Shown one piece after another: positions 14,747-62,293 of a stretch of 64,000 nt of DNA. The position numbers were made by a program, and so were the translations under genes. A model generated the notes under the pieces. It worked only from the letters and a program-made list of their open reading frames with translations. It was not told where the DNA came from and did no database searches. The DNA is from Flectonema sp. DT1601 (taxonomy: Eukaryota), in assembly GCA_964019425.1 (NCBI GenBank), contig OZ025800.1, positions 930,001 through 994,000 of the forward strand, read 5' to 3'. Each line of letters starts with the position of its first letter. Positions within the stretch are counted from its first letter, which is position 1.

Positions 14747-14941
14747 TCTATTCGAAGTTTTAAATTGATATCAACCTGCAGAAGGAAATAAGAGGACAGT
14801 TTGTTATCTTTTCAGGAAATATATAAAAATGAAATGACATTCTACAGTCTAATTCATAATGTAGAAAAACAATAAAAAAGATTTCGATAGTCTTATGCAA
14901 TAATTCATAATGAAAGTAAATGACGTGCCTACCAGAGTTTA

Positions 14942-18274: not shown

Positions 18275-18530
18275 ATTATCTGACTGTGAAAGGGGGAAAA
18301 TAGTTTTTTATTTATGGTTATTTTTTTTTTTTTTTTTTTTTTTGTCCTCCTTTCCTTTTGACGTTAAAAAAAAAAAAACTATTGAAAAGAAACTGAAGCT
18401 CAAGATAACATCAAAAAAAAAAAAACAATAATAATAATAAATAATAAAAACTACATAACAAAAAACAAACAAAAACTAAAAATAAAAATAAAACAAAAAA
18501 AAATAAAACCATTAATATAATTATTGTTAC

Positions 18531-27627: not shown

Positions 27628-27840
27628 GTTACTATTGGGAATACATATATCATTTATTGATTTTACTCTGATTCTCTTTGACAGCGAACCACCTGCAGAT
27701 GAAAGAATCAACTTTAAGGAGAATTCGTAAAAATAATAGTTAACACACAACAGAAACCAAGTATCCTTAAGTGGCTGTTACTTGAATTATAGATGCTTTG
27801 CCACAATGCTGTTAAGGGGAAATATAAGTGATGGTGGGTT

Positions 27841-28630
27841 TCAAGTACACAATTTGCATGATTTTATAACTAACAACTTTGCTTCAGCAACAGGAATAAG
27901 GGACTGGACACTTTCTGAATTCGCTATCTTCCCCCTTATCTCCACGATCCAATCTGGAACTTGGACAAACTCTTCTGACAATCTCTTATTGTGGAACTGT
28001 CCTTGTGTCCTTGTTAACTCCACTACCTCCAACATCCATCTGCTCCCCCTCCCTCTACTAACAGGACTTGTTTTCCTCATTACATCAGACTCTAGTCCAC
28101 GCGTTACACTCATAAAGTAATTTAGCTTGTCAAGTTCATCAATCATATCTTGCGAGTTTCTTATATTTATAATATTCTCAAGTTGACTGATAAGTTGATT
28201 AAACTCAGACTCTGTTATCTCATTTGTGAATATATCAAGGCGTTGTTAGGAATTTATTTATTCGTTCGGTCTTCCTGTTGAGTACTAAATCTTTCACAAG
28301 GGTATGATTGTGCACCATCTCCTTTAGTGATTTCGATGACTGTCGATGTTGCATCTGTTGGAATTGCGAATGAATCTGCCGTTGCATCCCTATCCTCCTC
28401 GACATGAAATTGTTTTCAGAGTTGATCTGTATTGCGCTTCTCCCTCTCATCCATCAAGGCATTGGATACCCTTGTACATCAATCTAGGCTCAGAGGTCAG
28501 TTTTTTGAGCCTCGCACTTTCCCTATTATCGACATCAGCCAGCCTCCAGCCTCACCTTGAGTCTCTCCATCTGTTTCAGAGGTTTGATTCTGTCGTTCGT
28601 GTTTTCTATTTTACCGTGATTAACCTCCAG
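27841..28630 (-). pseudogene. Broken ORF fragments downstream of the viral-type ATPase; probably decayed genes of the same element
   Basis: Several short, same-strand, coding-like frames (27841-28146, 28235-28450) with stops and frameshifts. No host-like poly-A/T spacers. Confidence 0.35.
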
Positions 28631-29297
28631 TAGGGTGTCCAACCCCTTCCTGAATCTCATATCCATGTCTGGAGGTTGTTATCGATGTTGATGAAACCGC
28701 ATCTCCAACCCTCGAAACCACGACTTGAAAGGGTCGCGGTTCACCCCTGACTCTACTCGATTGTGAATAGTAGTTACCTTGTGATCGTTCATCCTATAAA
28801 GTATGTAGCAACTCACGTTGTCTCGAATTAGCTTTGGCATATTGAAGAACGATTGACTGATGTAGATGGTTGAGATGTTGAGGTGTCGTCCACGAGAGAA
28901 GAGCTCAATGGATTTCTTCTGATCACATTCAAGTATGATGTCGTCCAATACTATCAGATTCCACAACTCCCGATTCAGGGTGTCGATGTCGAAAGTATCA
29001 ATTGAGTCATGGGCTTCGAAGATGGTTGGACAATCCTGAGCCTTCTTGTATAACTTTTCTTGCTTCTCTCCGAATATTTGGATGAGGTTGATACTTAGGT
29101 TAGTACAGAGAGGTTGAGATTATTGCGAGGGTGTCATAACAGGGTAGATTCTTGTCGAGTAACAGACTCATTACCACATTCGTCTTCCTACATCCCGAAG
29201 GTCCGGCAACCAGCATTCTGAACAGCCATTGCGGTGTTATGAGTGAGTTGTTTCTATACTGATGTGAGGCAGCCTGATCATAGTTCTTGATATTCAT
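28630..29297 (-). pseudogene. A32/FtsK-HerA-type DNA packaging ATPase of a Polinton/adintovirus/PLV-like element (inactivated)
   Basis: RMLVAGPSGCRKT (Walker A with G to R), SLY*PKY (in-frame TAA at 29100-29102 where Q is typical), LIVLDD (Walker B), LFSRGRHLNISTIYISQSFF..PKLIRDN. Frameshifted C-terminus GFINID...RFRKGLD. Confidence 0.8.
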
Positions 29298-29321
29298 CTC
29301 TTTTTAGATCCATAAGCTAAT

Positions 29322-29451
29322 AAACTTTGTGTGGAGCTGGCTGTATTTTTAAAACTTTGTGCGTGGAGCTGGCTGTTTTTTTGAAACTTTGTGCGTGGAG
29401 CTGGCTATTTTTTAAAACTTTGTGTGTGGAGCTGGCTGTTTTTTAAAACTT
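29322..29451. repeat. Left stub of the 32-bp satellite (~4 units)
   Basis: AAACTTTGTGYGTGGAGCTGGCTRTTTTTT units, cut off from the main array by the TIR element. Confidence 0.95.
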
Positions 29452-29511
29452 GGGAAAACCTCTAATCCAGACACAAAAGTTTCCGAAACCGCCAACTCTA
29501 TACAAAAAAAG

Positions 29512-29588
29512 TGCCTTGTGGCCTGTGGTTAAAAAATCCGCCACCCGGAATCGAACTTGCCGAATTTAAGGCAGACTTTTTTTTTTTT
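29512..29588 (+). promoter_or_regulatory. tRNA-like / Pol III-like cassette inside the left TIR
   Basis: 7-bp acceptor-like stem TGCCTTG/TAAGGCA, A-box-like TGGCCTGTGG at position 8, B-box-like GGAATCGAACT (AGTTCGATTCC on the minus strand), then T12. Confidence 0.45.
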
Positions 29589-30300
29589 CTGAAAAATGCG
29601 TTGAGTAATTTTAAATCTCCTCACAATTTTTTCTAAACAAACATGCCTGCTTCTGATGGGAGACACTTTTGGGACGCGTGACAAGTTCACAAAGAGTTTT
29701 TCTCAGATTATTTTGGACGTTCTTGCACCACGTCCGCCTGCCAATGTTTAGCTTGTACTAACATCATTGCCTCAAACCACCAGCACATCGTTTAAGGTGG
29801 TCTCTATGGAGGTGGGTGTTACAGTGGCACCAACTGCCCTTACATTGGCAACAGCTGTACAAGCACCCACTGAAGGGATGTAAGCACCTTGTTGACAAAG
29901 GCCCAAACGAAGATGCATCGATCATTGTATGCAAAAATGACTTCCAGGGATGAAGCCGACGGAAGACACAGAGGGGATGGATATATGGGGCAGACACTCT
30001 GGAACGTTGGTCAGACGCTTAATTGGCCCAAAGACGTACCCTGACCGAACGAATGTGGTGTGATTCAAAGGAGGGCTTGTTGTTTATGATCGGAAAATCA
30101 ATCTTCGTGTGCCAAAGAGCCATCGGGGCGCAGGATTGTAACTCCACCGCCTTTGCCAGGATAACCTTCGCCACAGCAACAGTCCGTACCTGACGGCACA
30201 AAACCTCGTATTCAAGTTATCAACAAGTTCCTCAAGTTATCAAGTACAGTTAGTCAGTACAGTTAGTCACTCAACATTGTGTTGACATTTTGAGGCAAAC

Positions 30301-30385
30301 AAAAAAAAAGGTTTGCAGCCGGGTTCGAACCCGCGAATTGCACCTCAGAAGACCGCGGTAACACCCACTGGGCCACCGTGTCAGC
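30301..30385 (-). promoter_or_regulatory. tRNA-derived Pol III-like cassette (A box, B box, oligo-T) originally next to the right TIR
   Basis: A-box TGGCCCAGTGG (30375-30365), B-box GGTTCGAACCC (30331-30321), T9 terminator. No complete cloverleaf. Confidence 0.55.
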
Positions 30386-30890
30386 AACAAAAAATAAATT
30401 TTTTTTTTTTTTTTTTGGTTACACTCGTCTGTGCTACCAAACTCTTTGTTTTTGTTCTTTTCACTTCTATGTTTTGTCTTTCTTTTATACTTTCTTTTTA
30501 ACTTAAGTCTGACAAATTGGAAAACACGGGAAACATAGGTAGGCTCCGCCTGAGGACGTAAGAAGAGCGGCAACGGAAAAATAAATGGTCACGCGTCCTT
30601 GAAATTGGACACATGAAGCTAATTCGGTTGCCATTCCTACCATCGATAAGGAAAAACAAAGAATCGAGCATATAACTAGAGCGGTGGTCAAAGACCACTT
30701 GAACAGCCCGAAGGCCTGCCCTCAAGAGAAATTTATAAGGAGAATAGGAGAAGAAGGAGACAGGAGTGTTGGATGAGACACTGCGACAACACCGAAGGTG
30801 ATGTGCAGTTACCCAACCAGGAGATGATTGATAATGATGAAAATACTAAAATAATAACAAATTGATATTGGCGACTACATGTCACCTACT

Positions 30891-33800
30891 TTACTTCCAA
30901 AGTCTAAGGTTAGATGTTTGTTCCATCCACCTTATGATCAACGCGAGTGATGGAAGCCACGCCAAAGTGAAGAGAGCTTCAAGGTTAGGAATTTCGTTGG
31001 CAATAATAAGTTCTCGATCGCGATCCCACTTGCCGGTCAGTGTTGAGAAGCCCAGGATTTTGAACCTGGCAGAGTCGAGTTTGGGAGATTGACATCCCTG
31101 CAGCAGGTGAACCTGTGAGGACGGTTCGCCACAAAATGGGCAGTCGATCGTCTTGCGCCAGTTCTGAATTAGCGGGTGACATCCTGTCCGGAAGTTCGCT
31201 ATCCGTATCTCGTCGGCTCTTTCCATCCCAGGAGGGTATTTAACGGAACGGCCTCTGATGAGGTGTTTGTAGCAGGTGTAACCACTCACGTTAAGCAGAT
31301 CCTTTTTGATGCAGCGCTTCACATGTGATGATCGCGAGAAGTACGTGCCTTTGACTAGCACAGGTCGGATGTTCTTGTTGTGCGCTGCTTCCTTTGCAAG
31401 CGCGTCAACTTCATCGTGAAACTCGATTCCAATGTGCGAGGGGATGAATTGCAAATGCACTTTCATCTCACACATGCGCAGGTATTCCAGTATCTTGAGG
31501 GACTCGGTATTCCTCTGTCTGCACCTTCCACCCAGCAGTTCATCCAGAAGGGATTTTGAGTCCGTGAATATCCTCACAGATTTCATTGAACGATCTTTGC
31601 TAAACACTGTTCTCAGATGTCTAGCCGCGTTCTTCAGAGCATGTTGTTCAGCCCTGTAGCTGCAGTCAGCTTGATAAAGCCTAGACGCGTAAGCAGATCG
31701 AAGGCCGCTACGTGACTTGGCAATATGAGCCGCACCGGCCGCGCCGGAAGCAGAGTAGGAGCCATCGCAGTTGATTACCATGTCGACAGGAGGCAACGTT
31801 CCAATGTACGACATGAACTTTTCTTTGTCCACCGCAGGGTTCGCGGACTTCGGAAATCCGCAGCTGTTGCTAATCCTAAGGTTCGTCGGAGATACCCAGG
31901 GTTCCATCGAGTCAGGCTGCACAAGGCACTGGCTTTCACGCTGACTATCAGTGCCAGGGATTAGGCCAGCCCAGTAGCTTTGTGTTGAGGCGAGTCTGTT
32001 TGTATTAGGTATCCAAGTCATGGCTTTATACCGGTAGTACGCAATTTTTGTCTGCTTTTCAATCTGACGTTTAAAAGGATACATGTCAGACTCCCACAAC
32101 AGTAACTCTCTTGGCGTACACTTGCTGCATCCAGTAACCAGTCTGGCGACCTTCCTCAGTTCGAAGTCGATGCTGTCAACGCTGCTGCTTATCAGCCAAC
32201 CAAAACTGTCAAGCGCATACGAGATTCTCGCGGTTACATAAAGGTTCTTAACCATGTTAAGAGTCTTGTAGTCCAGTTCGTACGGCTGGAGGCACTGCAG
32301 AAGTGATATCCCCCTCTTTAATTCTTCGTGAATCTTGCCTACTTGTTTGTGGAAGGTGAGCCTGTCGTCGATGTGAACCCCGAGGTATTTTACTGAGTCG
32401 ACTATCGGTAACAGAAAGGCAGTTTTGAATATTGTTCTCACAACCATAATGCTGTCCTCACGAACGACGTATTGCAGCATCAAGTTGTCGAGTTCTTCTT
32501 GTGTCTTGATTGGGATTCCTCCAATTTCAAGAATAGTTTCGCCACTTTGAAGCATGGGTCTGGGTGATTTGAGATTGATATGCTTCTCGATGTCACCATA
32601 GTCAAGTTTAAGCATGCGTTCCTCAACAGATCTAGAGAAAAGCAGTTCGCGATTACACGTATCGTTTAGTACTATGCCCTTCGAGCGAACATTCATCTTA
32701 AGCGCACAGGTTTTGGAGACTGATAAGGCCATGTCGTTTTCAAAACACCATTGATCCACTTTGTCGAGTACTAACTGAGCATTCGAAAGAGCTTCTTCCA
32801 TGTTTGATCCTGACACCACACATGCTGTGTCATCCGCATACAGAGCAGACGTCGTTGTTTCCTTCTCCAGTTCCAAAATCTTGCAGAGGTCATCAACGTA
32901 GATAAGATAGAGAAGAGGACCCAGGATCGATCCCTGGGGAACCCCCTTAGCCAGAGTACGGAATTCGCTAAAATACCCATTCGCTTCAACTCTAACCTTC
33001 CTGTTTGTAAGAAAGTCTGTGATCCATCTGATAATAACATTCGGAACACCCATCTTTACTAATTTTAATAAAAGTATCTTATGGTTGATCCTGTCAAACG
33101 CAGCAGTAAAGTCGAATGACAAGAACACTGATCTCTTTTCTTCCATGTGGCTCCTTACGATAGCATCTACTAGAACGGTGATCTGCTCGCAGGTATTTCT
33201 CCCCTTTCTGAATCCAGCCTGTAGTGGGCTGAGCGACGAATGTTTTGTGAGCCAGTGCATGAGTCGGTCATACACGAGCCTCTCCGCAAGTTTCCCAACA
33301 ACCGAGGTGAGCGTTATTGGTCTGAAACTCTTTAGTTCATTACGAGGTTTCCCTGCCTTGAACATGGGCTTGATTAGTCCCTGTTTCCATTGGTACGGTA
33401 CTTTTGAAGTCTTCCAGGAAGTGTTAATAATTCTCAAGAGGTATTCCACTGTTGCCGGAGTGAAGTTTTTGATCATCTCATTGTGAACTCCATCAGGTCC
33501 TGCAGCCTTGCGGGTCTTCAGGTTCTTAATCGCAGCTTTAATTTCAGCCATTGTGAAATCACAGCAAATATCTATTTCATTATCACCTTCTGAGAGTGCG
33601 GGGGCCTCTAGCGATAATATTTCCGATTTCGAGACAAACAGGTCCAAGAATGCTGATGGTAGATCGCAGTCAGAGATGTTGTTGACACTGATATCTTTAC
33701 CAGCATCTTGCTGCAGTTCTTTGATCTTCTTAAACGCAAAGGCAAAGTTGTTACCCTTGTCAAGTTGATCACGTAGGTGGACACCCTTCGATTTGGTAGA

Positions 33801-34802
33801 ATCTGGAGTTGACGTCTTCCACTTTCGTCTCCGTTTCCCTTTGAAAAGGAGACGTCGACGAATGAATTTAGCCGCCACTTCATGCAGTATGTTGTTAAAG
33901 AGCTTGGCATTCGCAGTTGCATCATCGGAGAGTCTTGATTTTCTAATTCTCTTTTCGAGCATGGTCCCAAAGCAGTTCCAGTCCGTAGACTTGAAGTCCC
34001 ATACAACGCGTTTCTTCGAACCTATCGTGGCCCGTGCAAGTTGGCACATGGGATCCAGTACGGTGTAGAGAGGTCGATGATCTGACCCATGTTTATTATC
34101 TTCTTCAATTGCACTAAATTCTTCAAGAACCATCGAGTTTGAAAAGAATACTACATCTGGCGAGGTACCACCCCCCGGGACGTCAGGAAAAGGCCTTGTG
34201 ATTGACCCCATCTTGTTAGCAACCAGTAGATCATTTTGAGCTGCCCATGCATGTAGAGTTGAACCTGCTCTCGTCGATTTAAGTGACCACACCGGATGAT
34301 GGGCATTAAAGTCACCCGCGACGATTGCTTTCGTTGAGACTGGAAGATCTGACTCTCTGATCATGCATCCCGGGGGAGCATAAACATTGATGATGTCAAT
34401 CTTTCCACCTATGTTGACCTTCACGACCTCGACATCATTAAAGTGTGGCGGAAGCTCCATGTTCAAACGCTGCTGAGTGTGGCATTTTTTCACCATAGAA
34501 ATAACCCCTCCACCTCGTGTTGCCCTATCATTCCGATAGGTGAAATAGTCCGTGTGCGAAATTACATCATTCGTCCAAGTCTCCTGTAGGCACAGTACGT
34601 CAGGCGCATAGGCATTAAGCAGCTTGTGAATATAAGCGCCTTTGTTCCCCATCGATCGACAGTTCCAGCTCAGTAGAGATATGAGAGAGTTGTCAGGGCC
34701 AGGGTTGCGTTCGACGTCGCCTGCCTTTAGCAGCAGTTCACGAGCCGTATCCTTTTCCACAAGTGAGTTGGTCGGACTGAGTTCATCCTCATCGTCATCT
34801 AG
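30891..34802 (-). CDS. LINE ORF2: 2A peptide, apurinic-like endonuclease, reverse transcriptase, RNase H, zinc finger
   Basis: LLLKAGDVERNPGP. APE motifs SWNCR, LQET, GDFNAH, SDH. RT motifs QAGFR, DFTAAFD, GVPQGS, YADD, KYLGV. RNase H motifs CDGS, AE, TDS, PSH. CPFC..HLL..C. No internal stops. Confidence 0.92.
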   Translation of the reverse strand, partial: LDDDEDELSPTNSLVEKDTARELLLKAGDVERNPGPDNSLISLLSWNCRSMGNKGAYIHKLLNAYAPDVLCLQETWTNDVISHTDYFTYRNDRATRGGGVISMVKKCHTQQRLNMELPPHFNDVEVVKVNIGGKIDIINVYAPPGCMIRESDLPVSTKAIVAGDFNAHHPVWSLKSTRAGSTLHAWAAQNDLLVANKMGSITRPFPDVPGGGTSPDVVFFSNSMVLEEFSAIEEDNKHGSDHRPLYTVLDPMCQLARATIGSKKRVVWDFKSTDWNCFGTMLEKRIRKSRLSDDATANAKLFNNILHEVAAKFIRRRLLFKGKRRRKWKTSTPDSTKSKGVHLRDQLDKGNNFAFAFKKIKELQQDAGKDISVNNISDCDLPSAFLDLFVSKSEILSLEAPALSEGDNEIDICCDFTMAEIKAAIKNLKTRKAAGPDGVHNEMIKNFTPATVEYLLRIINTSWKTSKVPYQWKQGLIKPMFKAGKPRNELKSFRPITLTSVVGKLAERLVYDRLMHWLTKHSSLSPLQAGFRKGRNTCEQITVLVDAIVRSHMEEKRSVFLSFDFTAAFDRINHKILLLKLVKMGVPNVIIRWITDFLTNRKVRVEANGYFSEFRTLAKGVPQGSILGPLLYLIYVDDLCKILELEKETTTSALYADDTACVVSGSNMEEALSNAQLVLDKVDQWCFENDMALSVSKTCALKMNVRSKGIVLNDTCNRELLFSRSVEERMLKLDYGDIEKHINLKSPRPMLQSGETILEIGGIPIKTQEELDNLMLQYVVREDSIMVVRTIFKTAFLLPIVDSVKYLGVHIDDRLTFHKQVGKIHEELKRGISLLQCLQPYELDYKTLNMVKNLYVTARISYALDSFGWLISSSVDSIDFELRKVARLVTGCSKCTPRELLLWESDMYPFKRQIEKQTKIAYYRYKAMTWIPNTNRLASTQSYWAGLIPGTDSQRESQCLVQPDSMEPWVSPTNLRISNSCGFPKSANPAVDKEKFMSYIGTLPPVDMVINCDGSYSASGAAGAAHIAKSRSGLRSAYASRLYQADCSYRAEQHALKNAARHLRTVFSKDRSMKSVRIFTDSKSLLDELLGGRCRQRNTESLKILEYLRMCEMKVHLQFIPSHIGIEFHDEVDALAKEAAHNKNIRPVLVKGTYFSRSSHVKRCIKKDLLNVSGYTCYKHLIRGRSVKYPPGMERADEIRIANFRTGCHPLIQNWRKTIDCPFCGEPSSQVHLLQGCQSPKLDSARFKILGFSTLTGKWDRDRELIIANEIPNLEALFTLAWLPSLALIIRWMEQTSNLRLWK

Positions 34803-36455
34803 TCAGTTGAGATCAAAGTCCGAATCGTTACTTTCCATTTCTACGTCACGGTTTTTATCACTATCCTGCTTAGCAGCAGATTCGGTGGGCGGTGTTGTTG
34901 TTTGTGCTGTTGCTGGTGCTGGCGTTGGTGCTGATGGTGCTGGCGCTGGTGTTGGTGCTGATGTCGGCTGCTGAGTTGGCTGTTGTGGTTGAGGAGTTGT
35001 TTTTTGTCTCTTCAGGGTTCCCGTTAGTTTTTGAGCCGCGTCGCCTGGGTTGTAGGTTGGGCCTAGCGGTTTTCTGTCAGTTCGTTTAACTTCTTTGTTT
35101 ATCACAAGGTATTCATTAGTACCTATGCTTACGAAGTTGGGCGGTTGAGATTTCGCAATTGCAACAATTGTAGTACTCCCTCCTTTATGGAAAGAAGCAA
35201 CAACTGTGTGTTCCCAGTTGTGTGAGGACTTCAAGAAGTCGCTGATCTGCGCTGTTGAGTACTTACGAATCGCCATCGAATTTATAACAAACCTGTCGCC
35301 CGAGGGCAGTGCAGGCTTGATTGCCGCGTTGAGCTTAATGCTGACCCTGATATTACAGTCAGGGTGGACTCGGAGTCCAAAACAGCTTTTAAACCTGCAC
35401 ATGTAGAATTTTCCTTTGAATTCATCAAGTGCAGAAGTCTTGGACTTCGCTGCCAGGAAGCCAAGGTCGTTTTTGAATTGCAACGTTGGCCAAACGTCAC
35501 TTCCGTTCGACCAACTCGGGTTTCTGAAAAAGACATTCTTGGGTTTGTCAGTTTCGGGTTCGCTGTTGTTGTATTCCAGAACCTCGTGTACTTGGTTTCT
35601 GGGGACTCTGAAAGCCATCGAGGTGTGGGACTCGTTCTTTCTGTAGCTAAAGGGGTCCGCCTTTATCTTCAATTTCTTTAGAATATCGGTCGTTTTGACG
35701 GTCAATTCTTTCTCAGCTGATTTTCCCCAGTCTTGGATGAATAGAACTGGGTTGGGAGTTGGAATCTGGTGGCTAGTTGCTGCTTTAGAAAAGTCGTCAC
35801 CAAATACGTGCGTGTAAAATACGCGCCTGATCTCGCAGACGCCACCCTTTTTTATCACCGGTAATGCTACTGGAACGGTGCTCTTTGTGAGCGGGATTTT
35901 GCTGATAGCAGCCCAACGGCCGCTCTTCTTTGTTTGGCGGAGTGCTTCTAAGTCTAGCTTCGAACGAACTAAAACAAGACCAGAGGTAAGGTTGTTTGTA
36001 GCATTAGCTGCTACGTCGTAACTGATGGTGGCCACAGCGCCTGCCCACGCACCGTGAATGTGCCACTCCGGGTAGCTTGCTTTTGCCTTTCCCTTCGTGG
36101 TTTGATTGTCCTTCATTGCTGTCGGTATCGGCAATGAGAACGGCTTCGTACTCGTTTGTTGATTAGAAGCTGTAGATGCTCCTGTAGTTGGTTGGTTGAC
36201 ACCTGTGGTTGAGGGTGTCGTCGCTTCTGCTGCCGTCGTCGCGGTCGCTTCCGTCCCACCACTCCCATCGAGTGTGTCCGGTGTCCTCCTCTTCATCTCC
36301 GGGTTCCCACCTTCTGACCCAGCTACGAATTGAACGATCTCCATTAGGAGATTTGCCACCCTTCTTTCCTTCTCTTGCTCCGGGATCCCGTCTTCTCCCA
36401 CTATCTTCAGGAGGTTTATTGCCTCCGATACCAACCTCTTCAGGTTGTCTCTCAT
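34803..36455 (-). CDS. LINE ORF1 (550 aa, basic, no recognisable CCHC knuckle)
   Basis: ATG 36455 to TGA 34805-34803. Lies between the element 5' end and ORF2, in the same frame as ORF2. Confidence 0.85.
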   Translation of the reverse strand: MRDNLKRLVSEAINLLKIVGEDGIPEQEKERRVANLLMEIVQFVAGSEGGNPEMKRRTPDTLDGSGGTEATATTAAEATTPSTTGVNQPTTGASTASNQQTSTKPFSLPIPTAMKDNQTTKGKAKASYPEWHIHGAWAGAVATISYDVAANATNNLTSGLVLVRSKLDLEALRQTKKSGRWAAISKIPLTKSTVPVALPVIKKGGVCEIRRVFYTHVFGDDFSKAATSHQIPTPNPVLFIQDWGKSAEKELTVKTTDILKKLKIKADPFSYRKNESHTSMAFRVPRNQVHEVLEYNNSEPETDKPKNVFFRNPSWSNGSDVWPTLQFKNDLGFLAAKSKTSALDEFKGKFYMCRFKSCFGLRVHPDCNIRVSIKLNAAIKPALPSGDRFVINSMAIRKYSTAQISDFLKSSHNWEHTVVASFHKGGSTTIVAIAKSQPPNFVSIGTNEYLVINKEVKRTDRKPLGPTYNPGDAAQKLTGTLKRQKTTPQPQQPTQQPTSAPTPAPAPSAPTPAPATAQTTTPPTESAAKQDSDKNRDVEMESNDSDFDLN

Positions 36456-36615
36456 AATTGCTTTTTCCAATAAAGTACAGAAACTGTAGCTTTAGAATCG
36501 TTGGAATAAATTTTATAATTCTTTCATTGGGGGATTGTTACTCCCGTGACAAAATTTTTTTTTGTATAGAGTTGGCGGTTTCGGAAACTTTTGTGTTCGG
36601 ATTAGGGGTTTTCCC

Positions 36616-53215: not shown

Positions 53216-53221
53216 TTCTTT

Positions 53222-53674
53222 TGAAACTTTGTGTGTGGAGCTAGCTATTTTTTAAAACTTTGTGTGTTGAGCTGGCTGTATCTTTGAAACTTTGTGTGTG
53301 GGGCTGTTTTATTGAAAATTTTTGTGTGGAGCTGGCTATTTTTTAAAAATTTGTGTGTGGAGCTGGCTGTTTTTTAAAAACTTTGTGCGTGGAGCTGGCT
53401 GTTTTTTTGAAACTTTGTGTGTGGAGCTGGCAGTTTTTTTGAAACTTTGTGCGGAGCTGGCTGTTTTATTGAAAATTTTTGTGTGGAGCTGGCTATTTTT
53501 TAAAACTTTGTGTGTGGAGCTGGCAGTTTTTTTGAAACTTTGTGTGTGGAGCCGTCTGTTTTTTCGAAACTTTGTGTGTGGAGCTGGCTGTTTTTTTGAA
53601 ACTTTGTGCGGAGCTGGCTGTTTTTTTAAAACTTTGTGCGTGGAGCTGGCTGTTTTTTTGCAACTTTGTGGAGC
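53222..53674. repeat. Satellite island (32-bp unit)
   Basis: Same unit and orientation as the main array. Confidence 0.95.
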
Positions 53675-54817
53675 ATAAACGGCTATGTCGATCACTTTCT
53701 ATTTTCCGTCCTGGTCAAGACGCTAAACTGATTGTTTTTTTTCTTCAAAATTAATAAAAAAGAATATAAAAAAATACAAAAAAAAGAATGAACAATGTTA
53801 TCATTGTTTTTTTTATCGATCGACTATGTCGATTACTTTCTATTTTCCGTCCTGGTCAAGACGCTAAACTGATTGTTTTTTTTTTCAAAATAAAAAAAAT
53901 ATTAAAAAAAAAAAAATAAAAAAAAAGAATAAACAATGTTATCATTGTTTTTTTTTATCGTTCGACTTTGTTGACTAATTTCTATTTTCCGTTTTTTTTT
54001 CTTTAAAAAATAAATAAAAAGAATTTAAAATAAAAAAAAAAAAGAATAAACAATGTTATCATTGTTTTTTTTATCGATCGACTATGTCGATCACTTTCTA
54101 TTTTCCGTCCTGGTCAAGACGCTAAACTGATTGTTTTTTTTTTCAAAATAAAAAAAATATTAAAAAAAAAAAAATAAAAAAAAAGAATAAACAATGTTAT
54201 CATTGTTTTTTTTTATCGTTCGACTTTGTTGACTAATTTCTATTTTCCGTTTTTTTTTCTTTAAAAAATAAATAAAAAGAATTTAAAATAAAAAAAAAAA
54301 AGAATAAACAATGTTATCATTGTTTTTTTTATCGATCGACTATGTCGATCACTTTCTATTTTCCGTCCTGGTCAAGACGCTAAACTGATTGTTTTTTTTT
54401 CAAAATTAATAAAAAAGAATATAAAAAAAATAAAAAAAAAAAGAATAAACAATGTTATCATTGTTTTTTTTTATCGTTCGACTTTGTTGACTAATTTCTA
54501 TTTTCCATTTTTTTTCTTTTAAAAATAAATAAAAAGAATTAAAATAAAAAAAAAAAAAAGAATAAACAATGTTATCATTGTTTTTTTTATCGATCGACTA
54601 TGTCGATTACTTTCTATTTTCCGTCCTGGTCAGGACGCTAAACTGATTGTTTTTTTTTTTTCTTTAAAAATAAATAAAAAGATTAAAAAAAAAAAAAAAA
54701 GGAATAAACAATGTTATCATTGTTTTTTTTTTATCGATCGACTATGTCGATTACTTACTATTTTCCGTCCTGGTCAAGACGCTAAACTGATTGTTTTTTC
54801 TTTAAAATAATTAAAAA

Positions 54818-54850
<33 letters not shown>

Positions 54851-55116
54851 AATAAACAATGTTATCATTGTTTTTTTTTCTATCGATCAACTATGTCGAT
54901 TAATTTCTATTTTCCGTCCTGATCGAGACGCTAAACTGATTGTTTCCTTTTTTTAAATAATAAATAAGAAAAAAAAAAAAAAAAAAAAAAGAGCATCTCC
55001 CTGCTATCCCTCATATCCCCACAATAATATTATACCTTTTCATTTTCTCTTTCCTTTTCTGGTCTTTTTTTTTTTCTTTTTTTTCCTTTTTCATACAACG
55101 TTTTTTATTTATATAT

Positions 55117-56918
55117 GAGAGGATGCCAAAAGTAGGGTACAATTTTGGGCCACGGGTATCTGACAGTCCCTAAGTGTGAATCCGACCACTTTTCACAAGA
55201 TATTTTATACTCAAAAAATGCAATTCCGTGTCTGGGAAGTGATTTTACTCACCGCTAGTTTCAAAATTCCATATTTCCTTCACTAAAGACCCCTCTTTGT
55301 AGGCTAACAGGCCTTTGTCCTGTATGAACCATTTTTGCTGCCTTTTTAAATCATGTCGTTTATTTATCTGAAACCAGTTAAATTCCTACAACATCCAGAA
55401 ACATGCAAGAAAAAGTTGTTATCTCGCGGTTCAAAGAGCTAATGACAGAAATGGGTGAGCAGCTCCAATAGGGGGAGCGAAACAGTGCTAGTGGGTCGAC
55501 AAAGAGACAGGTGAGATTAGCAAAACAGCTGCTTGAGTGCCTTTCAGGAGGCGATGTTGACAGCATGCTCAGGGATGTTATTGGCATATCAAGTCTGTGG
55601 AAATGTGTTGTTCCCCCTTGTGTAGGTGAGATGATAAGTAGTTTAGAAGTTGGAAGGAGGAGGAGAGTTTTTAAAACACTTGACAGCAACGGGTGGAAGT
55701 TTTAACACTTTGCAGAAGCCGGTATTAAGATCGGAAGGAAGGCATGGGGTGAGAGAAACAGTGAGGCTCAGATGCTAGGACGGCCAAGAAAAACCAATGA
55801 GGAGATGGCAGAAGTTGTCGACAGCGAGCACAGGGCAGCATCGGCGGAAACCTCTATCACACTGAAGAGGCTGTCGAAGGTGCGAGACTCAACTGTCACC
55901 ATCCAGAATGTCTTGCCAACTTTCCGGAGCATCTATGAGAGCAGCTCTCTCAGAGATAAGATTTCAATGACAACCTTTCGTAGGATGAGAAAAGAAGAAT
56001 TCCGCAAACTGGCCCGCCGAACTGATGTTTGTAACTACTGCCTGGCAGGCCAGTCAATCAGGAAGAAACTGGGGAAGCTCGTTAAAAGTGCTAAAGGGAA
56101 GTCCGGTTACTCGATGAGTGTCTGGAATGTCTCTCGCTCAAGTGGTCTTATTCTCCAGTGCATGCTCAATTCTCCTGGAAGTGTACCCCAAAATATTAAA
56201 CTTCAGGCTGCAGAATACATTCAGCAACTCGTAGAGATTGATCTTCACACTGAGGAATTCCGACGCCAGAACGCGATTTACGCTGAAAAAACACAAGACC
56301 CAGGTGACAGTCTGGTGATCACCCTAGACTACAAAGAAAAGGGCACATTGCCACAGGTTCCGCAGGAAGGCAATAGCCATTTCTACAAGCAGGGGAAATA
56401 CAGTTGCTTGGGGGAAAAGGGACACAGATACCCAAAAGGAAAAGAAAGCAGCGTCAGTGTAAGGGGTGCGGTGGGGTTGACCACGACTTGCGCAACTGCC
56501 CTAGATCAGAATTTGAAAGCAGCACCAGTAGCATCATTACCAGTAGTGACAGTATGTGTACCAGTATCAGTAGTACCTGTGCTAGTAGCAGTACTTCCAG
56601 CACTCCCAGTGACGTGTAGCAATTAAGAACTTCAGCAAAATCAATGATTTTTATAAAAAAGAAAGCACATCATTGTATTATCAGTACTGCCTATTAAGCA
56701 CCTGGTCGAACTTAGTATCACTACCATTCTCCTTATACTACAGGTAAGCTCTTAGGGAAAATATGGAATTTTCAAACTAGCGGTGAGTAAAATCACTTCC
56801 CAGACACGGAATTGCATTTTTTGAGTACAAAATATCTTGTGAAAAGTGGTCGGATTCACACTTAGGGACCGTCAGATACCCGTGGCCCAAAATTGTACCC
56901 TACTTTTGGCACGTTCTC
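55117..56918 (+). mobile_element. Sola-like DNA transposon (internally deleted), nested in the foldback core
   Basis: ~160-bp TIRs (55117-55278, 56755-56918) with GAG..CTC termini. 4-bp ATAT TSD (55113-55116, 56919-56922). Confidence 0.8.
55403..56626 (+). pseudogene. Truncated Sola-type transposase
   Basis: One frame from ATG 55403 with premature TAG (~55469) and TAA (55703). Motifs RRTDVCNYC and LVITLDYKEK..LP...SHFYK (first catalytic Asp). The frame then jumps, frameshifted, to a C-terminal knuckle CKGCGGVDHDLRNC. Confidence 0.7.
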
Positions 56919-56977
56919 ATATATATATTTTTTTTTTTTTTTTTTCATGTTTGATTATTTCCTCTTCATTTTTTTTT

Positions 56978-57011
<34 letters not shown>

Positions 57012-58173
57012 TCTGCCTCTCTCTTAATTCTGTTCGTTTCTTTGAAACGAAAATTCATTTGAATATTATTCCTTGGTCAGCAACCATCATTGTCGCCCTT
57101 TGGGCCTGTTAAAAAAAATAAAAATAAAAAGAAAGTTTACATCGGGAATAGGGCAGGAGCCAAAAGCTCCCAGTCCGTTACTTCCCACTTTATCGAAATT
57201 CAAGGGAAAAAAAAAATAAAGACCAGAAAAGGAAAGAGAAAATGAAAAGGTATAATATTATTGTGGGGATATGAGGGATAGCAGGGAGATGCTCTTTTTT
57301 TTTTTTTTTTTTTTATTTATTATTTAAAAAAAAAGGAAACAATCAGTTTAGCGTCTCGATCAGGACGGAAAATAGAAATTAATCGACATAGTCGATCGAT
57401 AGAAAAAAAAACAATGATAACATTGTTTATTCTTTTTTTTTTTTTTTTTTTTTTTTTAAATCCTTTTAATTATTTTAAAGAAAAAACTTCCGTTTAGCGT
57501 CTTGACCAGGACAGAAAATAGAAAGTAATCGACATAGTCGATCGATAAAAAAAAAAAACAATGATAACATTGTTTATTCCTTTTTTTTTTTTTTTTTTAA
57601 CTTTTTATTTATTTCTTAAAGAAAAAACAATCAGTTTAGCGTCCTGACCAGGACGGAAAATAGAAAGTAATCGACATAGTCGATCGATAAAAAAAACAAT
57701 GATAACATTGTTTATTCCTTTTTTTTTTTTTTTTTTTTTTTATCTTTTTATTTATTTTTTAAAGAAAAAACAATCAGTTTAGCGTCCTGACCAGGACGGA
57801 AAATAGAAAGTAATCGACATAGTCGATCGATAAAAAAAACAATGATAACATTGTTTATTCCTTTTTTTTTTTTTTTTTTTTTTATCTTTTTATTTATTTT
57901 TTAAAGAAAAAACAATCAGTTTAGCGTCCTGACCAGGACGGAAAATAGGAATTAGTCGACAAAGTTGATCGATAAGAAACAATGATAACATTGTTTATTC
58001 ATTTTTTTTTTTTTTTTTTTTATATTCTTTTTATTTATTTTTAAAAAAAAAAAAAACAATCAGTTTAGCGTCTTGACCAGGACGGAAAGTAGACAGTAAT
58101 CGACAAAGTCGATCGATAAAAAAAAACAATGATAACATTGTTTATTTCTTTTTTTTTTTTTTTTTTTTTATAT

Positions 58174-60018
58174 CTTTGTGCTTTAGCTGTTTTTTTAAAA
58201 CTTTGTGGAGCTGGCTATTTTTTAAAACTTTGTGTGTGGAGCTGGCTATTTTTTAAAACTTTGTGCGTGGAGCTGGCTGTTTTTTTGAAACTTTGTGCAT
58301 GGAGCTGGCAGTTTTTTTGAAACTTTGTGCGTGGAGCTGGCTGTTTTTTTGAAACTTTGTGCGTGGAGCCGGCTGTTTTTTTGAAACTTTGTGTGTGGAG
58401 CTGGCTGTTTTTTTGAAAATTTTTGTGTGGAGCTGGCTATTTTTTAAAACTTTGTGTGTAGAACTGGCAGTTTTTTTAAAACTTTGTGCGTGGAGCTGGC
58501 TGTTTTTTTGAAAATTTGTTTGTGGAGCTGGCTATTTTTTAAAACTTTGTGTGTGGAGCTGGCTGTTTCTTTGAAACTTTTTGCGTGGAGCCGGCTGTTT
58601 TTTTGAAACTTTGTGTGTGGAGCTGGCTGTTTTTTTGAAACTTTGTGTGTGGAGCTGGCTGTTTTTTTGAAACTTTGTGTGGAGCTAGCTGTTTTTTAAA
58701 ACTTTGTGTGTTGAGCTGGCTGTATTTTTGAAACTTTGTGTGTGGAGCCGTCTGTTTTTTCGAAACTTTGTGTGTGGAGCTGGCTATTTTTTAAAACTTT
58801 GTGCGTGGAGCTGGCTGTTTTTTTGAAACTTTGTGCATGGAGCTGGCAGTTTTTTTGAAACTTTGTGCGTGGAGCTGGCTGTTTTTTTGAAACTTTGTGC
58901 GTGGAGCTGGCAGTTTTTTTGAAACTTTGTGTGTGGAGCTGGCTGTTTTTTTGAAAATTTTTGTGTGGAGCTGGCTATTTTTTAAAACTCTGTGTGTGGA
59001 GCTGGCTGTATTTTTGAAACTTTGTGCGTGGAGCTGGCTGTTTTTTTGAAACTTTGTGTGTGGAGCTGGCTGTTTTTTTGAAACTTTGTGCGTGGAGCTG
59101 GCTGTTTTTTTGAAACTTTGTGTGTGGAGCTGGCTGTTTTTTTGAAAATTTTTGTGTGGAGCTGGCTATTTTTTAAAACTCTGTGTGTGGAGCTGGCTGT
59201 ATTTTTGAAACTTTGTGCGTGGAGCTGGCTGTTTTTTTGAAACTTTGTGTGTGGAGCTGGCTGTTTTTTTGAAACTTTGTGTGTGGAGCTGGCTATTTTT
59301 TAAAACTCTGTGTGGAGCTGGCTGTTTATTAAAACTTTGTGTGGAGCTGGCTGTATTTTTGAAACTTTGTGCGTGGAGCTGGCTATTTTTTTGAAAATTT
59401 GTGTGGAGCTGGCTGTTTATTAAAACTTTGTGTGTGGAGCTGGTTGTTTTTTAAAACTTTGTGTGTGGAGCTGGTTGTTTTTTTGAAACTTTGTGTGTGG
59501 AGCTGGCTGTTTTTGAAAATTTGTGTGGAGCTGGCTGTTTATTAAAACTTTGTGTGGAGCTGGCTGTTTTTGAAAATTTGTGCGTGGAGCTGGCTATTTT
59601 TTTGAAAATTTGTGTGGAGCTGGCTGTTTATTAAAACTTTGTGTGTGGAGCTGGTTGTTTTTTAAAACTTTGTGTGTGGAGCTGGTTGTTTTTTTGAAAC
59701 TTTGTGTGTGGAGCTGGCTGTTTTTGAAAATTTGTGTGGAGCTGGCTGTTTATTAAAACTTTGTGTGGAGCTGGCTGTTTTTGAAAATTTGTGCGTGGAG
59801 CTGGCTATTTTTTTGAAAATTTGTGTGGAGCTGGCTGTTTATTAAAACTTTGTGTGGAGCTGGTTGTTTTTTGAAACTTTGTGAGTGGAGCCGGCTGTTT
59901 TTTCGAAACTTTGTGTGGAGCTGGTTGTTTTTTAGAATTTTGTGTGTGGAGCTGGCTGTTTTTTTGAAACTTTGTGTGTGGAGCTGGCTATTTTTTTTGA
60001 AAATTTGTGTGTGGAGAG
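58174..60018. repeat. Right satellite block (32-bp unit, more diverged at the edge)
   Basis: Same unit and orientation. Variants such as GGTTG and TTTATTAAAAC become frequent after ~59300. Confidence 0.95.
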
Positions 60019-60080
60019 AAGATGTGTTTGGCTAACATTCATAAAGTCTTACTGTGGGACTTGTCTTGTTGTTGTTAATT

Positions 60081-60768
60081 TGAGGCGATCGGCAGGGGTG
60101 GAGGTTTCACGAATTTTCACGTCACGAGTTGTCACTACCTATCACGAAAATTCACGAAAATTCACTGCCAAAAACATGGTGAAAAATTGTGAATTTTCGT
60201 GAATTTTGATATTGAGATTTGTGGTTTGGTAAAAAAAACTACTCAGGGGGGGCCCGAACTGCATTGCTTCGTAGTTGTCATCGGTGCTTGTTAATCCTAT
60301 CGTTCTCTACAGTTTATTGTGGTAATGCATTCACATGGCTCTCGTAAGAGTAACAGTGCAACTTCGCGATTCCTTGCCAGCAGAGATCTTGCTGTATGTG
60401 ACTAGCAGATCAAAGCTGTTAGATGTATTGGGTGGTATGGGACTAGAAGTTGAAGATGACTTGGAGGTTAGGGCTAGTGTTGCTGGCATGGAGCTGGGCA
60501 CAAGCGATGCCCATTTAGTTGTCAAAGTGACATGTATGGCAAACTGAACAGGTTTGACATCGCACAGCACACCAGCACCAACGGTACCATCTGGATATCA
60601 CTCACTTTTTTCACTAGAATTCACACATTTTCACACATTTTCACGGGATTTCACTACCAGAGAGCAGCAAAAAATTAAGTGAAAAATCGTGAAAAATTGT
60701 GAAAAATCGTGAATTTTTGTGTAGCAAAGTGAAAAATCGTGAACACCTCCACCCTGCCGATCGCCTCA
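60081..60768. mobile_element. 688-bp MITE with TG..CA termini and a 5-bp TSD
   Basis: TIR TGAGGCGATCGGCAGGG(G)TGGAGGT / ACCTCCACCCTGCCGATCGCCTCA. TSD TAATT at 60076-60080 and 60769-60773. Subterminal TTCAC/GTGAA repeats. Confidence 0.85.
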
Positions 60769-60862
60769 TAATTTCCCATCCGCCTGAGGGAATCCATAAA
60801 CCGCGGTCTTTACACTGTTGCCAGTGTGTTTATGGCCTTCGTCGCTGTTGGAAGTCCCCTCA

Positions 60863-60894
60863 CCGCTCTATGGCATCAACATGCCATAGAGCGG
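60863..60894. other. Perfect 14-bp stem-loop
   Basis: CCGCTCTATGGCAT-CAAC-ATGCCATAGAGCGG, ~65 nt 3' of the minus-strand ORF stop at 60960. Confidence 0.9.
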
Positions 60895-60959
60895 CAAGTG
60901 ATTAATGGACCATAGCTGAGCCTTGGGAACTCAGATTTGGGTTTAGACTAAAAAAGAAA

Positions 60960-62114
60960 TTATCGCCATGGCTTTCTTGTAGGAGCTGGCATCAAGCCTG
61001 ATTTCTGTGGCGTTTGCATCTTGTAGCGCTTTCGGGGCGTCGGTGTTGCTGTAACCCTCCGAAGCTTCTCCTTCTGCAACTTTCGAGGGAGCAACATTGT
61101 CTTTTCTGTCTTTTCCCTTGACTGTTTGGTGTCATCGGGGGTCATCTGTTGATGTAATGGGGTCTGCAGTTGTTCGTGCGACTCTGAAGGTGTGTCTGCT
61201 TGACGTTTTGGAGTGTCAAACAGGCATCTTCTGTTTACATCGTTTGTCTCTTCATCTGGTATTGCCGTGCGCTTCCCGTTCTCATTTGGAAAGTCTGCTG
61301 GGTGACTTGTGATACCTGATCCAAGATCATCTAATAACACCGGTGAAACTCGCGAAGGAGGGAAGATTACTACTTTCTTACTACTTTCTAATGGTGTTTC
61401 ATTCCCAAAAATCGCTCCGATGTCAAAACCATCTTGTTGAATTGTTTCAGTTGTAATGTACAAAGTTGGTGGGGTTGGTGGATGCAAAAGTGTCAGTTCC
61501 ATCGACGCGCACAGGACTGGTTTACTTGCCTGTCGTTGGCAGCTCACATTTGACATTACAAATAACCTCGGTGGAGTCGGTTGGAGTTGTTGGTATGACT
61601 GTGACGTAACACGCAACCTTTGCTGATGTTGAGGCTGGCTTGTCACTGTAATATATTCAAAGAGAGGTTGTCTCGTGGTTTGCGAGAAGGCATCGAGAAC
61701 CTGACTCACAAACTTAAATTGCTGTGTTGTTTGACTTGTAACAGACAATGTTGGCAGAGATGGTCGGGCTTGTTTTGTTAGTTCAGTTGTGACAAATAGT
61801 TCTGACAAACTCCGATAAGTTTGAGACGATGCATGCCACTTTTGTGATTGTGGTTGCGTTGTCATTAAAATATACTCATAAAGACGCTGTCCTGATGTCT
61901 GTGAGAACACATCATGAACCTGTCTGGTGGAGCATACAGTCCCTGCTGATCTACTTCGTGGCTTATGTATCCACTTTATCGAAGTAGACTCAGAAAGTTC
62001 AGCGTTGTAGAATTTTCTACTGAACTCTGCCTCTCTCTTTGCATCGAGTCTGTGGATCTCCGTCTGTGTCACAGCACTCAAGCATTGTGGTACAGATTGC
62101 GTTTCTGTTTCCAC
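60960..62114 (-). CDS. Disordered T/S/Q-rich protein with repeated TQT/SQT-like motifs; 5' end disrupted (possible pseudogene)
   Basis: Long open frame with VTQT, FSQT (x2), SSQT, TSQT and an internal duplication (DxFSQT..QxLxEYI.xTxQPQ). No in-frame ATG at the start; the nearest upstream ATG is out of frame. Confidence 0.55.
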   Translation of the reverse strand: METETQSVPQCLSAVTQTEIHRLDAKREAEFSRKFYNAELSESTSIKWIHKPRSRSAGTVCSTRQVHDVFSQTSGQRLYEYILMTTQPQSQKWHASSQTYRSLSELFVTTELTKQARPSLPTLSVTSQTTQQFKFVSQVLDAFSQTTRQPLFEYITVTSQPQHQQRLRVTSQSYQQLQPTPPRLFVMSNVSCQRQASKPVLCASMELTLLHPPTPPTLYITTETIQQDGFDIGAIFGNETPLESSKKVVIFPPSRVSPVLLDDLGSGITSHPADFPNENGKRTAIPDEETNDVNRRCLFDTPKRQADTPSESHEQLQTPLHQQMTPDDTKQSREKTEKTMLLPRKLQKEKLRRVTATPTPRKRYKMQTPQKSGLMPAPTRKPWR

Positions 62115-62293
62115 ATAAGTCTTAGCCTTTGCCTGTTGAGCAGCAAGCCTAAGCCAACCTGACTCAGTCTTTTCTTCAATTAGCGATTGCTTTCACATCT
62201 TTCACAGATTTCATTGATTGGTCGTTGAACAAAATTATTTCGGTTTTAAAAACTTTACTTTTCTGTTTTTCAGGATATTCTTACATCCCACAA

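What the first reader, a model, noticed from the sequence alone, without database searches (positions are those of the whole stretch)
27780..62270. Candidate centromere: satellite and retroelement block at a divergent strand-switch region
Seen: all host genes to the left are on the minus strand and the first host gene to the right is on the plus strand. Between them lie ~34 kb without host genes, holding ~18 kb of one satellite plus nested transposons. Known: Trypanosoma brucei centromeres are tandem-repeat arrays with neighbouring ingi-type retroelements between directional gene clusters. Inference: this could be the equivalent locus in a diplonemid-like genome, where centromeric DNA is poorly characterised. 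Only one plus-strand gene is visible, so the switch is weakly sampled.
Basis: inference. Interest (0 to 1): 0.7.

Follow-up and report, generated by a model that had tools for sequence, protein, structure and literature searches.

The report
Candidate diplonemid centromere with recoding retrotransposon
In a marine diplonemid protist, a 35-kb stretch with no ordinary genes holds 18 kb of one 32-base repeat and nested transposons, looks like a trypanosome centromere and is a plausible but untested centromere; the retrotransposon inside it likely makes its copying enzyme by reading through a stop codon and then skipping a peptide bond.

Summary
The block is real. The host is a diplonemid close to Flectonema neradi. 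About 580 same-strand 32-bp monomers (18.2 kb) and nested elements fill a 34.7-kb gap; other gene gaps are at most 2.2 kb. Unit size, A+T content, array size and an ingi-like retroelement match T. brucei centromeres.

Centromere function is untested: no genome was held, and every attempt to map the repeat elsewhere failed. The strand switch rests on one plus-strand kinase. A multicopy minus-strand ORF lies right of the array, so the switch may be beside it, not across it. Odds of a centromere: about 0.45.

Better supported is a side finding. The intact LINE has ORF1 and ORF2 in one frame, joined by UGA-CUAG, an acidic linker and a 2A-type motif, with no in-frame AUG before the endonuclease. 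13 of 15 listed ORF1 copies stop at this place. One 82%-identical copy keeps the stop context and changes mostly third positions. This points to readthrough followed by 2A skipping, a combination my searches did not find in print. The scan had not noted either feature elsewhere.

The parts
25798..27627 (-). Last host gene on the left: RabGAP-TBC + FYVE protein (context)
   Evidence: Pfam PF00566 E 1.7e-33, PF01363; cluster of one, on a 482,785-bp contig
27841..29303 (-). Decayed viral-type remnant: frameshifted A32-type packaging ATPase (P-loop piece 29100-29303, rest 28679-29119) and short ORFs; ends at the satellite edge
   Evidence: Pfam Pox_A32 E 2.4e-6, above cut-off; ORF list; no relative found in viral contigs or phages
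29322..29451 (+). Four 32-bp monomers cut off from the main array by the TIR element
29452..36615 (.). Non-autonomous TIR element, Mutator-like (label recalled from 9-bp TSD): 59-bp TIRs 95% alike, 9-bp target duplication at 29443-29451 and 36616-36624, inserted in the satellite
   Evidence: a 948-bp contig of run X5 holds both ends without the LINE (record 27)
30403..36504 (-). Full-length LINE with poly(A) tail and 10-bp target duplication (30393-30402, 36505-36514), inserted in the TIR element
   Evidence: the 10-mer occurs only at these two places in the window
34803..36455 (-). LINE ORF1, 550 aa; predicted N-terminal helices and tandem RRM/ACT-like domains
   Evidence: no Pfam hit; model pLDDT 70-90 over most of residues 235-455; best VIA Z 7.1 to tandem-RRM proteins, middling
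34799..34805 (-). ORF1 stop in UGA-CUA-G context, in frame with ORF2: predicted readthrough site
   Evidence: unchanged in an 82%-identical copy; type II motif per PMC3542737
34695..34751 (-). 2A-type peptide ending in the D-V-E-x-N-P-G-P motif, 36 codons after the stop and just before the endonuclease
   Evidence: motif as defined in PMC5972666 passage
30891..34802 (-). LINE ORF2, 1303 codons open: APE endonuclease, reverse transcriptase, RNase H-like region, C-terminal zinc knuckle; first in-frame ATG at codon 51, inside the endonuclease
   Evidence: Pfam RVT_1 E 1e-32, Exo_endo_phos; RNase H family hit only in relatives P0034/P0035; ATG position
36616..52404 (+). Main 32-bp satellite array, ~503 copies, 88 distinct monomers, internal duplications up to ~2.9 kb at 3,801-bp offset with one mismatch
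52405..53218 (+). Partial duplicate of the foldback-like element (three ~142-bp units, tail, 270-bp core)
53219..53670 (+). Short satellite stretch, ~14 monomers
53680..58162 (.). Foldback-like element: inverted arms of ~142-bp hairpin-rich units (9 on +, 6 on -), arms ~87% alike
   Evidence: unit folds better than 199 of 200 shuffles, z -3.07
55107..56928 (+). DNA transposon with 170-bp TIRs (96%) and a broken transposase-like ORF (in-frame stop, internal loss); Sola-like label is recalled, not from a call
   Evidence: no Pfam or PHROG hit
58163..60016 (+). Right satellite array, ~59 monomers; 15 of its 32 variants shared with the main array
60081..60768 (.). MITE with 40-bp TIRs, 10-bp subterminal repeats and a 5-bp target duplication
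60960..62192 (-). 5'-truncated multicopy ORF with seven [TS]Q[TS] repeats and host-like codon use; function unknown
   Evidence: 5 members on 4 contigs, 94-98% identical; codon score 0.04, hosts -0.10 to 0.13, elements -0.04 to -0.08; no family
62294..63196 (+). First plus-strand host gene: Ser/Thr protein kinase with upstream pyrimidine tract and AG
   Evidence: Pfam Pkinase E 4e-73; clusters with an F. neradi protein; upstream sequence

Best explanation
This is a satellite-cored repeat island between host genes of a Flectonema-like diplonemid, and it is most plausibly, though untested, the regional centromere of a small chromosome, laid out like those of Trypanosoma brucei. Shown: a single-orientation 32-bp array grew by unequal duplication and was invaded in order (TIR element into the satellite, LINE into the TIR element; foldback element into the satellite, a second transposon into the foldback). 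Inferred: the block is a silent zone where insertions are tolerated, the neighbouring gene clusters are transcribed away from it, and the unknown diplonemid kinetochore assembles on it. The LINE inside likely expresses ORF2 by low-level readthrough of UGA-CUAG at the end of ORF1, after which the 2A peptide would release the endonuclease-reverse transcriptase from the ORF1 fusion (inferred, about 0.65 on its own).
For: Gap of 34.7 kb against at most 2.2 kb elsewhere in the window. 18.2 kb homogeneous array with recent multi-kb duplications. T. brucei centromeres: one array per chromosome between directional gene clusters, ~30-bp or ~147-bp units, 59-75% A+T, with INGI/DIRE, 20-120 kb; T. cruzi kinetochore peaks are enriched in L1Tc and near strand switches. 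The LINE groups with RNase H- and 2A-bearing elements (SH-aLRT 93, quick tree). The contig is 482,785 bp, near the mean chromosome size of D. japonicum, 118 chromosomes in 62.3 Mb. No telomere dimers in the window. Satellite-like and LINE pieces lie in contigs of runs X1-X3, three studies, so the repeat is not private to this assembly. Readthrough: same frame, UGA-CUAG, first in-frame ATG at codon 51; 13 of 15 listed ORF1 members end at the same residue; none of 15 listed ORF2 members and none of the 6 diplonemid hits among 120 listed is fused to ORF1; the X3 copy has no listed change over 17 bases around the stop, 10 of 16 listed changes at third positions (p 0.016), and loses the GTG that gene callers use.
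Against: No functional or genome-wide evidence. Only one plus-strand gene. A minus-strand ORF with host-like codons lies right of the array. The satellite is 40% G+C, no lower than the gene arm. No helical-phase excess of AA/TT steps (p 0.19) and no unusual folding of the monomers (z -0.42 and 0.45). LINE family members are spread over at least 26 contig sizes among 30 listed proteins, with no clear co-clustering between subfamilies. D. papillatum has many dispersed tandem repeats, and its gene clusters can be as short as five genes, so switches and arrays need not be rare. P. papillatum mitosis is unusual and its CENP-A candidate is absent from mitotic chromosomes. Against readthrough: no stable 3' structure (z +0.67); the diverged copy is one 151-bp contig of depth 2, with 9 of its 25 differences unlisted; sister subfamilies are called from a Met before the 2A (P0033, P0035, P0181) or lack it (P0034).
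Confidence: 0.45

Rival explanations
1. The block is a non-centromeric heterochromatic island: a satellite that expanded inside a dead viral insertion or at a cluster boundary and then collected transposons because insertions there are harmless.
For: The array starts exactly at the 5' end of a decayed A32-type ATPase gene. All element types are generic and the LINE family is dispersed. No centromere-type sequence feature was found. Repeat arrays are common in D. papillatum.
Against: The size, single orientation and ongoing homogenisation of the array in an otherwise compact arm, and the close match to the T. brucei layout.
Confidence: 0.35
2. The block is subtelomeric, or the scar of an end-to-end fusion or translocation; the strand change is a rearrangement breakpoint near 62.2 kb.
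For: A truncated multicopy ORF shared with three other contigs abuts the kinase. Viral remnants and mixed transposons are typical of chromosome ends (general knowledge). The window's place in the contig is unknown.
Against: No telomeric dimers; apparently single-copy host genes on both sides.
Confidence: 0.12
3. The satellite is real, but the assembly joins two different loci through it, so the strand switch and the array length are artefacts.
For: A ~2.9-kb stretch is repeated with one mismatch inside the array. No read or contig spanning the block was available.
Against: 88 distinct monomers give long reads enough unique signal; flanking insertions have clean target duplications.
Confidence: 0.08

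Closest known systems
Trypanosoma brucei megabase-chromosome centromeres (PMC1868937, PMC3292466)
   Same: Tandem array of ~30-bp units at ~60% A+T, tens of kb, next to an APE-RT retroelement with a 2A motif, near a change in gene direction
   Different: No sequence comparison made. The array here is not A+T-richer than its flanks and is invaded by several DNA transposons. Single-copy-per-chromosome status and function are unknown. Diplonemids lack structural KKT proteins.
Trypanosoma cruzi KKT2/KKT3-mapped centromeres (PMC13508446)
   Same: Gene-poor, retroelement-bearing, close to strand switches
   Different: T. cruzi sites are G+C-rich, ~10 kb and lack tandem repeats
Ingi/L1Tc-type LINEs with N-terminal 2A peptides (PMC3708506, PMC3894237)
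   Same: 2A-type motif directly before APE, then RT and an RNase H-like region
   Different: Ingi-clade elements are described as having no ORF1. This one has a 550-aa ORF1 in the same frame, closed by UGA-CUAG, and no AUG before the 2A.
Paramecium Group 3 non-LTR elements (PMC5405496)
   Same: ORF1 and ORF2 in one frame; readthrough of the ORF1 stop suggested from consensus sequences
   Different: A different clade in a ciliate; no 2A mentioned in the passages seen
Alphavirus type II readthrough, UGA-CUA (PMC3542737)
   Same: Same stop context, used to make the polymerase at a set low ratio
   Different: Viral cases usually have a 3' stem-loop, not detected here

Membership tests
T. brucei-type regional centromere | Array of short tandem repeats, several to >100 kb | tested here: met
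   18.2 kb, ~580 monomers of ~32 bp
T. brucei-type regional centromere | Repeats A+T-rich | tested here: inconclusive
   60% A+T is inside the T. brucei range of 59-75% but equal to the flanking gene arm
T. brucei-type regional centromere | Lies between directional gene clusters | tested here: inconclusive
   14 minus ORFs on the left, one plus gene on the right, and a minus multicopy ORF right of the array
T. brucei-type regional centromere | Adjacent INGI/DIRE-type retroelement | tested here: inconclusive
   Intact LINE with ingi-like architecture; no labelled ingi or L1Tc row in the tree
T. brucei-type regional centromere | Array restricted to one site per chromosome | not testable with these tools
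   No genome held; indirect mapping gave nothing
T. brucei-type regional centromere | Topoisomerase II cleavage or kinetochore binding at the site; mitotic stability | not testable with these tools
   Needs bench work; no diplonemid kinetochore marker exists
Ingi-clade LINE | APE, RT and RNase H in the long ORF | tested here: met
   APE and RT by Pfam; RNase H by Pfam in 44-50% identical relatives and by visible motifs, not by a hit on this copy
Ingi-clade LINE | 2A-type peptide immediately before APE | tested here: met
   Motif at codons 29-36 of ORF2; skipping activity not tested
Ingi-clade LINE | Single long ORF, no ORF1 (PMC3708506) | tested here: not met
   550-aa ORF1, 20 cluster members, homologues in F. 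neradi transcripts
Ingi-clade LINE | RT phylogeny inside the Ingi clade | tested here: inconclusive
   119-row quick tree without labelled references; 7 diplonemid rows form a clade (100) inside a 2A/RNase H-rich group (93)
Type II programmed stop readthrough | UGA followed by CUA or CGG, downstream ORF in frame | tested here: met
   motif definition
Type II programmed stop readthrough | Stop and context conserved while flanks evolve as coding sequence | tested here: met
   One diverged copy only; stop position kept in 13 of 15 listed ORF1 proteins
Type II programmed stop readthrough | 3' stem-loop starting about 8 nt after the stop (common, not universal) | tested here: not met
   146 nt fold no better than shuffles, z +0.67; longer-range pairing not tested
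Type II programmed stop readthrough | Measured extension product | not testable with these tools
   Needs a reporter or ribosome profiling

The most novel reading that the evidence does not exclude
This is the first centromeric DNA of a diplonemid: a 32-bp satellite present once per small chromosome, showing that the repeat-plus-retroelement layout at a strand switch is shared with trypanosomes although the kinetochores differ. It carries an active ingi-related LINE that chains two recoding events, UGA readthrough and 2A skipping, to make a free ORF2 protein without any start codon. The LINE part alone has a probability of about 0.6.
Probability: 0.3. Interest if true: 0.8.

Novelty: new variant of a known kind. 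Interest (0 to 1): 0.55.

Why it matters
Diplonemids have neither canonical nor kinetoplastid structural kinetochore proteins, and the position of their kinetochores is unknown. A centromeric repeat would give a FISH probe and a bait for locus-directed proteomics, a route to a possible third kinetochore system. The first test is cheap for anyone holding the assembly. The LINE matters separately: 2A peptides in LINEs were proposed to replace ORF1-dependent control of ORF2 (PMC3894237). An element with ORF1, a leaky stop and a 2A would show a further way to set the ORF1:ORF2 ratio, and would imply that diplonemid ribosomes support both recoding events.

Tried and rejected
Genome-wide mapping of the 32-mer: no genome held. 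Exact patterns found 0 matches in viral, metagenome and prokaryote contigs. A satellite-derived peptide found no protein among 596 candidates, and 0 of 2 satellite ORFs were in the protein collection. These blanks say nothing about copy number.

DNA of other LINE copies: ORF1 and ORF2 alignments found no relative in metagenome, viral or prokaryote contigs. Sequencing runs: 5 holders with word shares of 0.05-0.12, no RNA holder listed; 4 of the 5 were laid in each; none covered the host genes beyond short low-complexity matches, and depths were not used as copy numbers.

tRNA-like pieces seen by eye at 29515-29590 and 30300-30385: ARAGORN found 0 genes and Rfam nothing credible, so not accepted. 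Helical phasing and hairpin potential of the satellite: no excess. An out-of-frame AUG plus frameshift into ORF2: rejected by hand, because the listed X3 changes put a stop in that frame after six codons. GTG at codon 15 as start: lost in the X3 copy. A chance nonsense mutation in one long ORF: rejected, since 13 of 15 listed ORF1 copies stop there and no fusion was listed. The splice-acceptor strand count was swamped by T-runs and not used. The protein Atlas gave no result; the PDB sequence search and Foldseek found nothing significant for ORF1. The RT tree is the quick version; the careful search did not finish. Eight look-ups of earlier scan findings gave nothing relevant.
Full report
HOST AND SETTING. 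A BILBO1-like protein of the left arm is 92% identical to a Flectonema neradi transcript protein and 59% to Diplonema papillatum. The plus-strand kinase shares a 90% cluster with an F. neradi protein. The host is therefore a diplonemid near Flectonema. The window's proteins are listed on a contig of 482,785 bp; the window's place in it is unknown, and no genome was held. D. japonicum has 118 chromosomes in 62.3 Mb (PMC13598402 passages), so this contig may be near chromosome size (inference).

The 32-bp repeat forms four stretches totalling 18,225 bp and 577 delimited monomers, all on one strand, 91-92% like a reference monomer, at 40% G+C. The main array has 88 distinct monomers and near-exact internal duplications, the longest ~2.9 kb at a 3,801-bp offset, which fits growth by unequal exchange. 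The gene gap is 34,666 bp, against 163-2,152 bp for 11 gaps in the left arm. All 14 left ORFs of 200 aa or more are on the minus strand. Contigs of runs X1-X3 from three studies hold satellite-like and LINE pieces, so these repeats exist outside this assembly; those runs do not cover the host genes.

ANATOMY AND ORDER OF EVENTS. At the left edge the array abuts the start of a frameshifted A32-type packaging ATPase, a viral-type remnant. Four monomers in, a TIR element (29452-36615) has inserted with a 9-bp target duplication. A LINE (30403-36504) sits inside it with a 10-bp duplication that occurs nowhere else in the window; a 948-bp contig of run X5 holds both ends of the TIR element without the LINE. 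On the right, a foldback-like element with inverted arms of ~142-bp hairpin-rich units (53680-58162) interrupts the array. It is partly duplicated at 52405-53218 and carries a broken transposon with 170-bp TIRs. A MITE and a truncated multicopy ORF follow. The labels Mutator-like, Sola-like and foldback-like are recalled from end structures and come from no call.

IS IT A CENTROMERE? In favour is the likeness to T. brucei, where each chromosome has one array between directional gene clusters, with ~30-bp or ~147-bp units at 59-75% A+T and an INGI/DIRE element (PMC1868937 passages), 20-120 kb long (PMC3292466 abstract). T. cruzi kinetochore peaks are likewise near strand switches and rich in L1Tc (PMC13508446 passages). 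Against: the switch rests on one gene, and a minus-strand ORF with host-like codon use lies right of the array, so the direction change may be at ~62.2 kb. The satellite is not A+T-richer than the gene arm, not helically phased and not hairpin-prone. D. papillatum has abundant dispersed repeats and clusters of 5-120 genes (PMC10161547 passages; a term search of its 7 held supplementary files found no 'centromer', 'satellite' or 'strand switch'). P. papillatum mitosis is unusual, its CENP-A candidate is not on mitotic chromosomes, and kinetochore position is unknown (PMC12324889 passages and Discussion; bioRxiv 2024.08.06.606595 passages and Discussion). All routes to map the repeat elsewhere failed. 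I put a centromere at 0.45, a non-centromeric island at 0.35, a subtelomere or fusion scar at 0.12 and a mis-join at 0.08. It looks like a T. brucei centromere; it cannot be filed as one. Searches listed no paper describing diplonemid centromeric DNA; bioRxiv supplements and subscription papers were not visible.

THE LINE. ORF1 (550 aa) is predicted to hold tandem RRM/ACT-like domains (best Z 7.1, middling), as expected of a LINE RNA-binding protein. ORF2 (1303 codons; APE, RT, RNase H-like region) follows in the same frame after one UGA in the context UGA-CUA-G. An acidic run continues across the stop, a 2A-type motif ends at codon 36, and the first in-frame ATG is codon 51, past the first endonuclease motif. 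The stop is a family trait. Of 20 ORF1 cluster members 15 were listed, and 13 end at the same residue; the other 2 are truncated. Of 101 ORF2 members 15 were listed, none longer than 1289 aa. A search covering 716-2281 aa listed 120 of 266 hits, and its 6 diplonemid hits are unfused. One X3 contig, 82% identical over 140 bases without gaps, spans the junction. It has no listed change from 34795 to 34811 (chance about 0.007 from flanking rates). 10 of its 16 listed changes are at third positions (p 0.016). Between stop and 2A the changed codons are 2 synonymous, 3 Asp/Glu swaps, one Ser-Asn, and the loss of the GTG used by gene callers. It is a single contig of depth 2, and 9 of its 25 differences were not listed. 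Five of 6 ORF1 lineages that reach the C-terminus end in Asn (the frameshifted fragment P0214 was left out), hinting at a shared signal at the stop.

UGA-CUA is the type II readthrough motif, usually with a 3' stem-loop (PMC3542737 passages); no such structure was found. Sister subfamilies are called from a Met before the 2A, or lack it, so non-AUG reinitiation or another route remains possible. I put readthrough plus 2A skipping at about 0.65. In print, ingi-clade elements have a 2A but no ORF1 (PMC3708506 passages; PMC3894237 first third of the text); SART1 and L1 use reinitiation (PMC5972666 passages); readthrough was suggested for Paramecium Group 3 elements (PMC5405496 passages); two ORF1-2A-ORF2 fusions are noted in a pseudoscorpion (PMC13405545 passages). 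Searches listed no LINE with both a leaky stop and a 2A. In a quick RT tree of 119 rows the 7 diplonemid rows form a clade inside a group rich in 2A and RNase H elements, without labelled references, so clade membership is open. PMC11703244 (passages) proved irrelevant; PMC12171722 was seen only as a search listing.

VERDICT. The best-supported novelty is the LINE's likely double recoding. Novelty: new variant of a known kind. Interest 0.55.

Noticed in passing
window 34695-34805 (-): ORF1 stop in UGA-CUAG context, in frame with an AUG-less linker and 2A motif: likely readthrough followed by 2A skipping. Deserves its own follow-up with the DNA of the other ~20 full-length copies.
   Followed up: yes
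P0212, P0213, P0215, P0216, P0218 (ORF1 homologues): Five of six ORF1 lineages end in Asn although their C-termini are otherwise unalignable, suggesting a conserved nucleotide signal just before the stop.
   Followed up: partly
window 27841-29303 (-): Decayed viral-type remnant with a frameshifted A32-type packaging ATPase; Polinton-like or giant-virus origin not determined.
   Followed up: partly
window 60960-62192 (-): Truncated multicopy ORF with seven spaced [TS]Q[TS] motifs, recalling dynein light chain LC8-binding TQT repeats (recalled, untested); copies on three other contigs.
   Followed up: partly
window 52405-58162: Foldback-like element whose inverted arms are tandem ~142-bp hairpin-rich units; the unit length is close to the 147-bp T. 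brucei centromeric unit, probably by coincidence.
   Followed up: partly
window 29515-29590 and 30300-30385 (-): Two stretches inside the TIR element with box-B-like motifs and T-runs, tRNA-like by eye; ARAGORN and Rfam do not call them.
   Followed up: partly
window 13224-14770 (-) and 16338-18307 (-): Two host genes are each split over two overlapping frames (a BCKD/pyruvate dehydrogenase kinase-like gene, and an unknown one): short introns, frameshifts or sequence errors.
   Followed up: no
window 1-359 and 2903-3326: A ~400-bp sequence occurs twice at 83% identity around the LRR gene.
   Followed up: no
window 7120-8091 (-): A 300-aa gene with no Pfam hit and atypical codon use (GC3 0.60 against 0.27-0.41 for neighbours), possibly foreign.
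   Followed up: no
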